Under the pieces are notes generated by a model that was given only the letters and a program-made list of their open reading frames with translations, ran no database searches and was not told the origin of the DNA. DNA of 64,000 nt, taken from positions 18,910,001-18,974,000 of the forward strand of contig NC_135261.1 in the NCBI RefSeq assembly GCF_964204865.1, written 5' to 3'. Positions 731 to 15,447 of this stretch are shown piece by piece. The DNA is from Styela clava. Lineage: Eukaryota. Positions within the stretch are counted from its first letter, which is position 1. Every line of letters starts with the position of its first letter. The translations under genes were made by a program, and so were the position numbers.

Positions 731-875
731 TTGGGGTATACTGCGCTAAAATACGTTAAATAGTACTGGGGTAAGAATGCGCAGATAGGGTGATCAATCT
801 CTATGCGCCCTCCCACGTACCAACATTTTTTTTTCTCGAGATCGTTGAAGCATGTTACTCGATGTAATGTGAATT
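731..875 (+). repeat. Left arm of a long inverted repeat (partner 15300-15447)
   Basis: TTGGGGTATACTGCGCTAAAATACGTTAAA-TAGTACTGGGGTAA...TTTTTCTCGAGATCGTTGAAGCATGTTA...TGTAATGTGAAT aligns with the reverse complement of 15300-15447 (roughly 80% by eye, with indels). Confidence 0.9.
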
Positions 876-1394
876 ATATATTAAAATTAAAAGTGTAAAA
901 CTTTAATTAAACTTACTAAACTCCTCTGTTCAAATTTGTATTCAGATTTGCATATTCCAGATCTGTATATTCAAGGTGTGTGGTGTCATCTAGTACAGTT
1001 AGTCATCTAGTACAGATTGCTACTTAACATCACAGCGAATTCTGCGATAAAGAATTAGCTTCAAAGAAAATTGATTCATAAACTTCCGTCGGCATAGTAT
1101 GAAGGCATTTGGGCTGGATTCCAGACTTGTCGTATTCATCCGTAAAAATAAAAAAAAAATAAAAAAAATGGCACCATATTTAATCGTGGTATGTGAAATT
1201 GTAGTTTTTTAATGCAAATGATGTAATTTTATTTTAAATAAAAAATATGAACGTTCAGCACTACCTTGTTTTTGTTGTTTGCAGAAAAGCCTTTGATTTA
1301 ACTGTTTGCGTGACCTTTATTCAAAACTGGTGCACGAGGTAAATTTTTTAAACCCACTGGAATTTTCTCATTTCTAATTTGAAGTGCGTACTTC

Positions 1395-1508
1395 CAGTGG
1401 TGAGATTCAACCGGTTCGCATGTCAATGTTCTGTTTGTAACAGAACCGTCTGAAAAATATGACTTTTTTGATAGAACCGGCTGACAAAAAATATAAATCT
1501 CACCACTG
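1395..1508. mobile_element. 114-bp hAT MITE
   Basis: TIRs CAGTGGTGAGATT / AATCTCACCACTG; perfect 8-bp TSD CGTACTTC at 1387-1394 and 1509-1516. Confidence 0.9.
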
Positions 1509-2837
1509 CGTACTTCCGTTTGTTTTGTTATTTCTTTGAAGCCCCAAGGATCAGATTTTATCACGTGCATTCATGTGTGCAATGTAACTTGATACTTTGT
1601 ACCAGCAGTGGTTCTTATCTGTCCAGGTGTGTAGAACAACAGCTCTCCCAGTAACACGGTATATTTAGGTATCTCCGGACATCTGTAATAAAATATATCT
1701 AACTGTGGCGCTGTATTTACTGTTATATTTCATAGAAGATATACAATCACTCATGTCCATGTATTTCATTAAAATACAGAAACGACAATTTAAATAAAAA
1801 TGATTTGTAAATATCTATGTTATTAAGGATAAAATGTTCGTTATACTGGGGGAAATTATAAATACCGGAAAATATAGCTTTGGTGACTATCCATTAAAAA
1901 CTGTTTGTAATATAATGAGTGTACTTAACTCATTCCAAGCATTGGTGAGGGTAAAAGTTAAATTATCAAAAATTGGAAAAAGCAAATTTTCAGACATGCT
2001 GTTGTATCCAGACGCATGTTTCAAATTCATTAATGTTTTGGAGTTTAAATGCTTTAAACTTCAATAATCTTATCTGCAATATGATTTTGTATCATACCTG
2101 GAAAAAAATGATAAAAACGCCATTTTTAGAAAGCAACAAAGCAATATACCAATGCTCAACAATAGTTAATTTATGATAATTGGGTATTACTTTCATTTGC
2201 AGCAATTATAAAACACCCGGTTCCAGCTCGGGAATAAGATTTTAGTTGGGTTCAGCCATGCCTGCAATGTAACATTACAGCATCGGTAGTAGATCACCAA
2301 GAAACTGTTTAAAAGAACGGAACTGAAAAATAACTTTCCGCGTGACATACACTGACCCCGAACTGTAAGCCAATTATTACCCAGTGTCATGGCAACGAAA
2401 AAAACAGGAGTAAACAAAAACAGCTCACTCGGTAATACGATGCTTTAAGTTTGTTATGGATACCTCCAAAATCACGAAAACAGCATCGATACCTGGCAGG
2501 CAGTTCATGATGTCATCATTCGAAAAACAAGTAAGAATTAGGTAAAATATAATGACATGTTATCGTACTTTTTTCGATGAGTAAGCAAAACTCTCATAAT
2601 TTTCTGATGTACATGTATTAAAACAAATAGCTTATTTGAAAAGAAAAGGCTTGTAAAAAAAACTCATGTTCCAAACAAATGTATCACACCAATATTGGTC
2701 GCAGTTTTTGAGCCTATATCCAATTTTGCATACTACTTCAAGCAGATTATTCATCAGCATATCGCCACTTTCTCTTTTAAATTATTCAAATTTTATTAAA
2801 TAATTAGAAAATAGAAATAGGTTGTCACACCATAAAC

Positions 2838-3963
2838 CAGGGGTCTTCAATTCAAAACATATCGCGGGCCACTTTTTGAAAATTATCGACCACGCGGGCC
2901 GCAAACCAAGAAATTAGGTACAGAAATGGGTATCTGAATGTATTGTGTTGAAATTACACTTGAATCTTACAGCAAACGAGACATGAAACATATATATATA
3001 TATTTATTCACTTGTGCTGGTTATTTGGTCTCGATGTTTGGCCTTATTTTGCGTTGGTTTGCTAGTCTCAAGAAAACATGCAAATGCTCGTCCATTAGTC
3101 GTGTGCGGAGTAAGGATGCCAAGTATGAGTACTTACAAGTATTCGATTCTTATCCGATTCCTAAATTGTCGATTCCGAATCTCGATTCCTCGACATATTA
3201 CCGAAGAAATATACCCACCCAAGCAATATCATATGAAATCAAGCAAGACAGCAATGTTCAAATTCCCTCAGAATCCACAGAGATTTTTAAAATAAATAAA
3301 CGTTAGCCTACTGGCGATATTTATATTATATATATTATATATAGTGAAGTTTGCGGTGTCGTAGCAACTCAACATAGCAGTGAAGCAGTTTATACATATA
3401 TATATGTGAAGAAATTGCCACAAAACGTTACACATTGTTTGCAATCCAAGTTTCAAACTCGAGAATCGATTCCGGTGCATCGGAATCGATTCTAGTCAAT
3501 TCCGCGAAGAATCGATTCTGTAATCGAATCCGGACTCGATTCCGCCATCCCTGGTGCGGAGGGCTGACTTGCTAACTTTCATAGTCTAAAAAAACTGCTC
3601 GCAAATATAAGAACTGCCAAAAATCGCAGCTATGCAAAGTGAATGTGCAATTAGCTTTGCAAACCTTTCTTCGGGCACAATAGACTGACCGAAACTCTTT
3701 TATTTCGTCACAATGAACATGCGGAATGAAATTATCGCATTTATAATTGCAATATAACAATATCATAAAACATGAACGTGGACAACAGGTGGGAATTTTG
3801 CTTCACTTTCTATGGTTTGTCGGACCGGACTCTTGATGATAAATGACACGATAAAACCTACTAAAAGTTGACATCGTACTAATTTAGTTTTTGGTGGAAA
3901 AATCCCAACCATGACGCGGACGGCAAAAAAATTGGCTGACGGGCCGCGTGTTGGAGACCCCTG
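2838..3963. mobile_element. hAT MITE hosting a nested insertion
   Basis: TIRs CAGGGGTCTTCAA / TTGGAGACCCCTG; perfect 8-bp TSD CCATAAAC (2830-2837, 3964-3971); absent from duplication copy B. Confidence 0.9.
3111..3553. mobile_element. Nested hAT MITE with GAATCGATTC subterminal repeats
   Basis: Ends TAAGGATG / CATCCCTG; perfect 8-bp TSD GTGCGGAG (3103-3110, 3554-3561); clustered GATTC/GAATC motifs near both ends. Confidence 0.85.
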
Positions 3964-13463: not shown

Positions 13464-13958
13464 AATGATTTTTGTTGCTGCAGTTTTTATTTCACAATAT
13501 TGTACTATTATAATGTTGGGATCTAGTAAAACGTTAAACACACATAAATTACTACAAGTTACAAAAATCAGTTATTACGTTTTGGAGGTTTTTAATATTT
13601 CAATAAAATTGTTAGGTAAAACCTTGTCACAAATGGATTCCTGTTTAGTAGAAAAACAGCATAACGTTTTGCTTGCAGGCAACTCTAATCTGCTAGGATT
13701 GCGTGAAAGTCAACGTTTATATAGCATGTACATCGATCGAGTTTGGACTTGTTTGCCGCCGCTGCAAAAAATGTAGAAAAAAGTTTGCACGCAGCTCAGG
13801 CAAATCGCTAAAAACAATAATTTTCCAAAAAAGGGCAGTTTTTAAAGCATCAAAACAATTCTATTCGTGTTAAAAAATACTAAAAACCTTGAGACCGCGA
13901 TCTCTTTCTGTTTAATCTACAGTGATAATATAGTGAATATAACGTGATCGTTCACTGG

Positions 13959-14122
13959 ATCATACTTGATTGCTCATCCAGTGGTGGGAATCCGCCGGTT
14001 CGCACCGGTCTTATAGAACCGTCCCACGGAATTTCATGCGATCATACTTGATTGCTCATCCAGTGGTGGGATTCCGCCGGTTCGCACCGGTTCTATAGAA
14101 CCGTCCCGCGGAATTTTACGCG
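13959..14122 (+). repeat. 82-bp tandem duplication including the left end of a CAGTGGTGGGATTC hAT MITE
   Basis: ATCATACTTGATTGCTCATCCAGTGGTGGGA(A/T)TCCGCCGGTTCGCACCGG... occurs at 13959 and 14041; end resembles the 1395-1508 MITE. Confidence 0.85.
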
Positions 14123-15299
14123 AGCAGCGAACCGGTTAGCATTACTGGTTACTGTCAATCAATTTTTGCATCTTATCTGAAACACCTATTTTTGAGATCA
14201 AGAAGCTGACGTGTTTCTTTCAAAATGTGAAATGATCAAGTTTGCACGTAACAGTTATACATTGTGTTAATTTTGTCTAGTCCTAGTCTTGAAAAGGTGT
14301 TCTGTCGCTGTTCAATCTACAATGATATTATAGTTACTATATACGTATAGCGTGATCTTTTACTGGTTCATACTTGAGTGAACCTGTTACGTTTCAACAG
14401 TGGATCACAATGTTCTTTCTCGAAATATTCAAACCAACCAAAATAAAGCAACGATATTTTATTCTCAGCACCTAGACACACCTTTATCGGCAATTACCGT
14501 TTATCAGCACTTACCGGTATATTTGATCTATTTCTCAATAATATTGTTTGTTAATATTTCAACGTTTTTGGGGACAGGACACTTCTCAATAACCGAGCTT
14601 ACTAATTTATCCATACGGCGGATTTTTTGCCGAGTTAAACTGCAATAAATTTATAATACAAGTTGTACAGTCTTAATAATCTGTGAACTTCAAACTTATT
14701 TTCACTGTACACCTATGAACGGTTAAATTTTCGTGCTTCCGCGGTTGACACGGCTCATTATGTCGAACAGTCGACCTGTATCTTATTATGCGATTGAGTT
14801 TATTTGACACTGTGGTTCAACTGATCTTCCAATAAAAGTATGTTATAAAATTATTATTAATTTTATTATACGTAACTTCATATTATTACCACTTGACGTA
14901 TATGTCTAAATATTCCAGCCATACTTACCCTAAATTCTCCTTTTTAATTTATATTCATTATTTTTCCTAATTTATGTTTCTTTTAAAGCTTCCTAAATTT
15001 GCTGTTTCTTACGTCTGGAAAAAGGGCAGAGGTAATCAATTTTTCTGATCTGATAAAAGTGCAATATTGGCAGATAAAAACAATTATTCCATGCTTACAC
15101 ACGCACTACAAACTTTTCCCAATTTGTAATGGATGTACGTCAAACACATACATAAAAGTCCGTATTCGATTTCAACCTTTTGGCGGACAGGACACTTCCC
15201 AATACCCGAGCTTACTAATTTATCCATACTGCGGATTTTTTACCTTATTAAATCAACTTTCAACATGGAAAATAAAAACTAATTTCATATTAATCACAT

Positions 15300-15447
15300 A
15301 ATATTCACATTACATTCAATAACATGCTTCAACTATCTCGAGAAAAATGAATATATATGCATGTAAGTAGGAGGGCGCATTGATGGTCCTATCTGCGCGA
15401 CATTACCTCAGTACTAATTTAACGTACTTTAGCGCAGTATACCCCAA
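15300..15447 (-). repeat. Right arm of a long inverted repeat (partner 731-875)
   Basis: Reverse complement reads TTGGGGTATACTGCGCTAAAGTACGTTAAATTAGTACTGAGGTAA...TTTTTCTCGAGATAGTTGAAGCATGTTATTGAATGTAATGTGAAT. Confidence 0.9.

What the first reader, a model, noticed from the sequence alone, without database searches (positions are those of the whole stretch)
731..15447. Both secreted-protein genes lie inside a ~14.7-kb unit closed by long inverted repeats with a degenerate TSD: possible gene-carrying (Pack-type) transposon
Seen: ~145-bp inverted arms starting TTGGGGTATACTGCGCTAAA that face inward and bracket the whole tandem duplication. Taking TGGGG as the terminus, the flanks read ACTGATAT (724-731) and ACTGACTT (15447-15454), a 6/8 match consistent with the ~80% arm identity. 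I found no internal copy of the arms and no intact transposase. Known: long G-rich-ended TIRs with 8-11-bp TSDs typify Mutator-like elements, and Pack-MULEs carry host genes in plants. Inference: a large non-autonomous element that carried an effector gene cassette. Caveats: the putative TSD overlaps the end of the adjacent hAT MITE, and the arms could be two independent truncated insertions.
Basis: partly seen in the sequence, partly recalled or inferred. Interest (0 to 1): 0.7.

Follow-up and report, generated by a model that had tools for sequence, protein, structure and literature searches.

The report
Transposon ends bracket duplicated sea-squirt genes
Two inward-facing ~160-base DNA-transposon-like ends flank a pair of duplicated, predicted secreted-protein genes in the sea squirt Styela clava, but they are more likely leftovers of two separate insertions than one 14.7-kb element that carried the genes.

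Summary
The arms are real: 731-891 and 15283-15447, 77.8% identical (E 5e-30), sharing an outer end, the only two copies in 64 kb. They enclose a tandem duplication with two intact three-exon genes matching Styela clava LOC120329987 and LOC120329914; no transposase was found.

The Pack-element reading is not established. The 6/8 TSD has a 3-8% chance probability once terminus and length are free. Four of its six matching bases are the end of an abutting hAT-like MITE that has itself lost its TSD. No 9-11-bp TSD with at most 2 mismatches exists, and an 8/10 repeat flanks the right arm alone. The arms are 38/40 identical at the tips but 83/121 inside, so "80% decay" does not excuse the TSD. Protein searches found no third, parental gene copy. 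Orphan transposon ends are common inside the interval.

Best reading (0.5): two truncated insertions around an ordinary tandem duplication. A true gene-carrying element remains possible (0.2). No eukaryotic genome could be searched.

The parts
13..727 (+). hAT-like MITE outside the left arm; 10-bp TIR (CAGTGGTTCC); its 8-bp flanks match only 1/8, so one junction was rearranged. Its last bases ACTG (724-727) are half of the claimed TSD
724..731 (+). Claimed left TSD ACTGATAT (6/8 to 15447-15454); marginal
731..891 (+). Left arm: TIR-like transposon end; exact terminus undefined (728, 731, 732 or 733)
1395..1508 (+). Nested 114-bp hAT-like MITE with perfect 8-bp TSD CGTACTTC
1729..7828 (.). Duplication unit A (weak collinear similarity may extend left to ~1525)
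2838..3963 (+). Nested 1.1-kb hAT-like element with perfect 8-bp TSD CCATAAAC; holds an unpaired hAT-like end at 3553
5403..6581 (-). Gene A, coding exons 6581-6476, 6002-5886, 5509-5403; intact GT-AG introns; exons match XP_039252730.1 / LOC120329987 (109 aa, hydrophobic N-terminus, 8 Cys)
7829..10322 (.). Unmatched spacer between units; unpaired hAT-like end at 8600; no Pfam transposase match
10323..15163 (.). Duplication unit B (non-coding p-distance to A 0.095-0.218 over 7 segments)
12265..13463 (-). Gene B, coding exons 13463-13376, 12874-12758, 12371-12265; intact; exons match XP_039252639.2 / LOC120329914 (103 aa, 75% identical to A, same 8 Cys)
13958..14126 (+). 82-bp tandem repeat holding two copies of an unpaired hAT-like end (13979, 14061)
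15169..15258 (+). Third partial copy of upstream sequence (88% to 14556-14639); marginal extension to ~15290; abuts the right arm
15277..15286 (+). AACTAATTTC, 8/10 to 15446-15455: rival direct repeat flanking the right arm alone
15283..15447 (-). Right arm: TIR-like transposon end
15447..15454 (+). Claimed right TSD ACTGACTT

Best explanation
The two arms are inverted repeats sharing one sharp outer end, and are likely the surviving outer ends of two separate insertions of one non-autonomous DNA-transposon family, each likely cut back by a later local deletion, around a gene pair that likely arose in place by ordinary tandem duplication. Shown: the arms, their uneven identity, the duplication, two intact genes, nested hAT-like elements, several unpaired transposon ends, and a rearranged junction next to each arm (MITE without TSD on the left, truncated third copy on the right). 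Inferred: that the arms are a left-type and a right-type end of a family with a ~40-bp near-perfect and ~160-bp imperfect TIR; that the inner parts were lost by deletion; that the 6/8 flank match is coincidence; that the genes never moved. The cargo proteins are predicted to be secreted, disulfide-bonded helical peptides, possibly cut at dibasic sites.
For: TSD is marginal: 3-4% ungapped, 7-8% gapped; none of 27 terminus-by-length settings gives 9-11 bp with at most 2 mismatches. Four of six matching bases are the invariant end of the 13-727 MITE, whose own flanks match 1/8; what follows ACTG on either side does not resemble the MITE's left flank GGCTAAAT, which carries the TA at positions 4-5 seen in 6 of the 10 flank 8-mers listed. 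A competing 8/10 repeat flanks the right arm alone (chance ~1%), so near-matches of this quality arise here by more than one reading. Timing tension: at the A/B divergence (~0.15) P(at most 2 mismatches in the terminal 40) = 0.049; at 0.05, P(2 or more mismatches in 8) = 0.057. No parental copy: only two family members among 194 candidates at E up to 10 and one real relative among 1.84 billion representatives; A's cluster has 1 member, B's has 2 versions of one accession. Unpaired ends are locally common: 4 of 9 hAT-like ends tested lack a convincing partner within 8 kb, all four inside 731-15447, two of them tandem copies of one end. The window holds another large duplication (45213-51720 vs 57558-64000, 97%) with no such arm. 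Animal Pack-TIRs are rare (~2 per 10,000 TIR elements) and were sought up to 5 kb; largest human case 3,585 bp (PMC8277862).
Against: Only two copies in 64 kb, facing inward, with 20/20 terminal identity; the seven other inverted pairs checked reach 15-17/20. Uneven identity suggests complementary left and right ends, as one element would have. Duplicate homology stops within ~25-40 bp of the right arm and does not resume outside it (score 9 vs null median 8.5), as at a capture junction. A genuine hAT pair in this window (42576/42767) also has a 6/8 TSD. At divergence ~0.10 the arm tips (P 0.22), the TSD (P 0.19) and the 12% third copy are all compatible with one event. The model needs two deletions that are not directly seen.
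Confidence: 0.5

Rival explanations
1. One Pack-type element: a Mutator-like or other long-TIR element took up ~14 kb containing the gene or gene pair by template switching and was then transposed here by a transposase in trans, making an 8-bp TSD that has since decayed.
For: Inward-facing complementary ends under 20 kb apart, no inner copies; 6/8 flank match, 0.75% in its own register; cargo homology ends at the right arm with a short local duplication at the junction; mosquito MULEs have 8-9-bp TSDs and >100-bp TIRs (PMC5225508); Ssk-FB4 shows a near-whole gene can be carried in an animal (PMC8277862).
Against: No parental or dispersed copy in the protein sets; TSD fails the 9-11-bp test and overlaps the MITE end; no sub-terminal tandem repeats of the Muta1 type; size far beyond the surveyed animal cases; Ciona had 0 Pack-TIRs and 0 MULE-MuDR consensus elements in that survey.
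Confidence: 0.2
2. One small element split in place: a single short TIR element sat here, a break inside it was repaired by copying or inserting the gene region (gap filling), the donor copy was later lost, and the enlarged unit never transposed.
For: Gap filling is the main route for single-copy animal Pack-TIRs, with nearby donors (PMC8277862); explains complementary ends and a single locus; the window starts only 730 bp left of the arm, so a decayed donor could lie outside it.
Against: Needs a lost or unannotated donor; still predicts a TSD, which is marginal; 14.4 kb is far above the reported filler sizes.
Confidence: 0.2
3. The arm is itself a complete ~160-bp short element; the right copy (15287-15445) has its own 10-bp TSD and the left copy is an independent inverted insertion.
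For: AACTAATTTC / AACTGACTTC flank the right arm at 8/10, chance ~1% within 25 positions; gives a G-terminus at 15445.
Against: Host homology does not continue outside the right arm; no matching repeat pair flanks the left arm (best 5-6 of 8-10 in the same orientation); uneven identity is not what two copies of one short element would show.
Confidence: 0.1

Closest known systems
Animal Pack-TIRs, especially Ssk-FB4 of Drosophila melanogaster (PMC8277862)
   Same: Non-autonomous, long inverted ends around host gene sequence with introns; no transposase.
   Different: Pack-TIRs were defined by an identifiable parental copy and 0.1-5 kb of cargo; Ssk-FB4 has ~700-bp TIRs, distinct 9-10-bp TSDs and several loci. 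Here: 14.4 kb, two paralogues, no parent found, one locus known, 6/8 flank match.
Mutator-like elements / Pack-MULEs (PMC3310237; Aedes Muta1, PMC5225508)
   Same: TIR-like arms over 100 bp, under 20 kb apart, G-rich near the end.
   Different: No 9-11-bp TSD with at most 2 mismatches; no perfect 8-9-bp TSD; no sub-terminal tandem repeats; arm identity 75-78%; no MULE transposase to anchor the family.
Spy elements (PMC4122938)
   Same: TIRs of variable length without a clear TSD.
   Different: Spy inserts between AAA and TTT and starts GGANNNNG; here the flanks are ATT / AAC and the end reads GGGGTATA.
Ordinary tandem gene duplication in a transposon-rich tunicate genome (PMC7540406: 45.9% TEs, 23.8% DNA elements)
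   Same: Head-to-tail paralogues with 10-22% non-coding divergence, nested MITEs, transposon fragments.
   Different: The pair is enclosed by two inverted ends of one family with a shared terminus, which most tandem pairs lack.

Membership tests
Pack-TIR (Tan et al. 2021) | Two TIR ends of the same element facing inward, termini retained | tested here: met
   family consensus unknown, so true termini are inferred
Pack-TIR (Tan et al. 2021) | Internal sequence is host (non-TE) DNA | tested here: met
   two annotated S. clava genes
Pack-TIR (Tan et al. 2021) | Identifiable parental copy elsewhere in the genome | tested here: inconclusive
   no third protein; unannotated or decayed copies cannot be seen without the genome
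Pack-TIR (Tan et al. 2021) | Cargo 100-5,000 bp (search window of that study) | tested here: not met
   14.4 kb between arms; an operational limit, not a biological one
Pack-TIR (Tan et al. 2021) | Multiple copies with distinct TSDs or an empty site (proof of transposition) | not testable with these tools
   no eukaryotic genome collection available
MULE / Pack-MULE | TIR over 100 bp | tested here: met
   161/165 bp, 75-78% identity; below the 80% used to build the tomato library
MULE / Pack-MULE | 9-11-bp TSD with at most 2 mismatches (PMC3310237) | tested here: not met
   0 of 27 terminus-length settings
MULE / Pack-MULE | 8-9-bp TSD as in Aedes MULEs (PMC5225508) | tested here: inconclusive
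   6/8 at terminus 732, chance 3-8%
MULE / Pack-MULE | Ends shared with a MULE-transposase-encoding element | not testable with these tools
   no transposase match in the interval; genome not searchable
hAT | CAG/TAG-type terminus at both ends with 8-bp TSD (terminus rule recalled; seen in local MITEs) | tested here: not met
   right end can be read CAGTTGGGG from 15450, left reads ATATTGGGG from 728; 8-bp flanks 2/8
Spy | AAA|TTT target and GGANNNNG terminus | tested here: not met
Maverick/Polinton (features recalled) | Integrase, pPolB and capsid genes between long TIRs | tested here: not met
   longest ORF in the interval 142 aa, no such Pfam match

The most novel reading that the evidence does not exclude
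A single 14.7-kb non-autonomous long-TIR transposon that carried two intact, intron-containing, lineage-specific secreted-peptide genes with their promoters to this site in a tunicate: about four times the largest human Pack-TIR, carrying whole genes in duplicate, in a subphylum where the one genome surveyed had none.
Probability: 0.2. Interest if true: 0.62.

Novelty: new member of a known kind. Interest (0 to 1): 0.3.

Why it matters
On the best reading it is ordinary: transposon remnants round a tandem gene pair in a repeat-rich genome, plus an uncharacterised 8-cysteine peptide family found only in S. clava in the protein sets searched. If the single-element reading holds, it would extend DNA-transposon gene capture in animals from kilobase fragments to a 14-kb multi-gene block and give a route by which orphan secreted-protein genes move in tunicates. 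One genome-wide search of the arm would settle it.

Tried and rejected
Transposase or other TE protein inside the arms: no Pfam transposase match in 114 ORFs of 45 aa or more (nine ORFs and P0001 gave weak sub-cutoff hits to unrelated families) or in 115 ORFs of 28-44 aa. Frames broken into pieces under 28 aa stay unscanned, so a heavily decayed transposase is not excluded.

Extra arm copies (compound transposon with inner ends): none. Arm pattern in prokaryotic genome contigs as stray host DNA: 0 matches. Structured RNA: 0 Rfam matches in the window; arm folding z = 0.16 and -0.12. Simple insertion of the right arm into continuing host sequence: rejected, no homology outside. Inverted-TSD inversion signature: best 5-7 of 8-10 over 60 positions, not tested against a null, not pursued. 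Spy, Polinton and hAT membership rejected (see Membership tests). TA, TTAA and 3-bp TSDs: no perfect match of 3 bp or more at any terminus 726-734; the two 2-bp matches (CT, GA) fall where the ends themselves disagree.

Identity of the protein: Pfam gave only a sub-cutoff PetM hit on the hydrophobic N-terminus; Atlas best 0.76; PDB sequences best E 0.53; model pLDDT 77, four helices after the N-terminal one; Foldseek no match at E up to 0.001; VIA-align best Z 5.2, rmsd 4.8, 71 aligned, not meaningful for a helical bundle. P0003 (E 7.7e-6) is a 1657-aa repeat protein matching 25 residues; dropped as spurious. 'Effector' rejected for lack of any evidence.

Literature: no paper in the library holds either LOC id or accession; none holds ascidian + foldback + transposon + terminal inverted repeats + Ciona; two searches returned nothing; one search returned only ecology-type listings. 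The viral and metagenome contig collections stayed unchecked.
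Full report
SOURCE. A search with exon 2 of the left gene returned one protein, 100% identical, named LOC120329987 [Styela clava]. The right gene's exons match LOC120329914, XP_039252639.2, and the next gene is an S. clava MTUS2-like gene at 20447-48049. The window is therefore sea-squirt DNA, about 34% GC. 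The S. clava genome paper reports 45.9% transposable elements, 23.8% DNA elements (PMC7540406, passages).

THE ARMS. Self-BLAST finds 731-891 against 15447-15283 at 77.8% over 171 columns, E 4.8e-30. The local score is 143; 1458 random inverted pairs give median 22 and maximum 65. The first 20 bases are identical and similarity stops abruptly outside them. No other copy exists in the window. Identity is uneven, 38/40 at the tips and 83/121 inside, Fisher p = 5e-4. I infer left and right ends of a family with imperfect TIRs rather than evenly decayed twins. There are no sub-terminal tandem repeats and no unusual folding. The terminus is not defined: GGGG at 733, TGGGG at 732, TTGGGG at 731, or CAGTTGGGG read from 15450 on the right only.

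WHAT LIES BETWEEN. Unit A (1729-7828) and unit B (10323-15163) are collinear direct copies, with non-coding p-distances of 0.095-0.218 in 7 segments and pS 0.175, pN 0.116 over exons 2 and 3. Each holds an intact minus-strand gene with three coding exons and GT-AG introns. The proteins are 109 and 103 aa, 75% identical, with a hydrophobic N-terminus, a basic stretch and 8 invariant cysteines. The model is helical, mean pLDDT 77, with no credible family or fold match. Secretion and dibasic processing are inferred from the sequence. A third partial copy (15169-15258, 88% to 14556-14639) abuts the right arm; its extension to ~15290 is marginal (p 0.02 against random sites, 0.09 against shuffles). 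On the left, 630-840 bp of unmatched DNA with a nested MITE separates the arm from unit A. No transposase match was found in 114 long and 115 short ORFs.

THE TSD. The 6/8 match is as described. Its chance is 0.75% in that register, 3.1-4.1% over three termini and lengths 8-11, and 7-8% if one indel is allowed. No terminus from 726 to 734 gives 9-11 bp with at most 2 mismatches (0 of 27), the criterion used for plant MULEs (PMC3310237, passages). A G-terminus gives 6/10 ungapped, or 7 matches in a 9/10-bp alignment with one gap. ACTG, four of the six matches, is the end of the 13-727 MITE. That MITE's flanks match 1/8, whereas the four other paired hAT-like elements tested give 8/8, 8/8, 7/8 and 6/8. 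So one MITE junction was rearranged, probably the one touching the arm, since the left flank has the TA at positions 4-5 common in local hAT targets (inference). The 6/8 hAT pair also shows that a real TSD can look this worn. Finally, an 8/10 repeat flanks the right arm by itself (chance ~1%). The TSD evidence is weak in both directions.

TIMING. If the element is as old as the A/B split (~0.15), 38/40 at the tips has P = 0.049. If it is young (0.05), two TSD mismatches have P = 0.057 and a near-identical parent should exist. At ~0.10 both fit (0.22 and 0.19), as does the 12% third copy. One event is thus allowed but not favoured.

PARENT. Only two family members appear among 194 candidates at E up to 10; the 1.84-billion set gives P0002 and one spurious repeat protein. 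A's cluster has one member on one contig; B's holds two versions of one accession differing by one residue. No annotated parent or dispersed copy is seen; unannotated ones are untested.

LOCAL BACKGROUND. Four of 9 hAT-like ends tested have no convincing partner within 8 kb, all inside the interval, two being tandem copies of one end. A 97%-identical duplication at 45213-51720 / 57558-64000 has no such arm. Seven other inverted same-family pairs were checked, five spanning 12-30 kb; none has 20/20 tips (15-17/20) and most come from MITEs with their own TIRs, so they are not equivalent controls. Against my reading, host homology does not resume outside the right arm, which fits a capture junction as well as a deletion.

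COMPARISON. Tan et al. 2021 (PMC8277862; abstract, sections 6-9 and 14, and one supplementary row seen) found 370 Pack-TIRs in 100 animal genomes, ~2 per 10,000 TIR elements, mostly single-copy gap fills near a parent, searched to 5 kb; the vase tunicate (ci3) had none. Ssk-FB4 is the closest true analogue. Aedes MULEs have 8-9-bp TSDs and often >100-bp TIRs (PMC5225508, passages). Spy does not fit (PMC4122938, passages). Repbase classifies non-autonomous elements by terminus and TSD (PMC4455052, passages); neither is fixed here, so the family stays unclassified. PMC5861414 and PMC12130899 were seen as passages and added nothing decisive. The locus works like a Pack-TIR in outline only; membership is not shown. 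Supplements of the S. clava genome paper were not opened and may hold a repeat library bearing on the arm family.

VERDICT. Observation largely right; TSD not better than marginal; 'effector' unsupported. Two truncated insertions round an in-place tandem duplication 0.5; transposed Pack element 0.2; single element split by gap filling 0.2; self-contained short element 0.1. These weights rest on rough base-rate reasoning (rarity and small size of animal Pack-TIRs against abundant solo ends), not on a direct test. Interest 0.3.

Noticed in passing
window 20447-48049 (+) and 57558-64000: MTUS2-like gene LOC120329426; its last four coding exons recur in a 97%-identical copy ~12.3 kb downstream (45213-51720 vs 57558-64000). 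Recent partial duplication or an uncollapsed second haplotype.
   Followed up: partly
window 5403-6581 and 12265-13463 (-): An 8-cysteine, predicted helical secreted peptide family found only in S. clava in the protein sets; KR at the end of exon 2 could yield two disulfide-linked chains. Exon 3 has pN 0.131 against pS 0.114 on few sites.
   Followed up: partly
window 17589-18077: A 16-bp minisatellite (15.7 copies, 17827-18077) beside a decayed LINE-type endonuclease fragment on the minus strand (Pfam Exo_endo_phos_2, E 3.7e-5, below cutoff).
   Followed up: no
window 20816-21717: 902-bp element with ~120-140-bp imperfect inverted ends (76%) and no clear TSD, in the first intron of the MTUS2-like gene; same general build as the arms but unrelated in sequence.
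   Followed up: partly
window 45421-45661, 57766-58007, 39781-39859, 34728-34838: 241-bp MITE family with 75-bp inverted ends, with partial copies.
   Followed up: no
window 19836-20068, 35978-36090, 43019-43135, 49562-49668, 61842-61948: Dispersed repeat family present as fragments in both orientations.
   Followed up: no
window 13888-14380: Local rearrangements in unit B: an 82-bp tandem repeat carrying an unpaired hAT-like end, and a second copy of 13888-13972 at 14288-14380.
   Followed up: partly
window 15433-15450 (-): Read inward from 15450 the right arm begins CAGTTGGGG, a hAT-like start; if that is the true end, both ACTG motifs of the claimed TSD would be transposon termini.
   Followed up: partly
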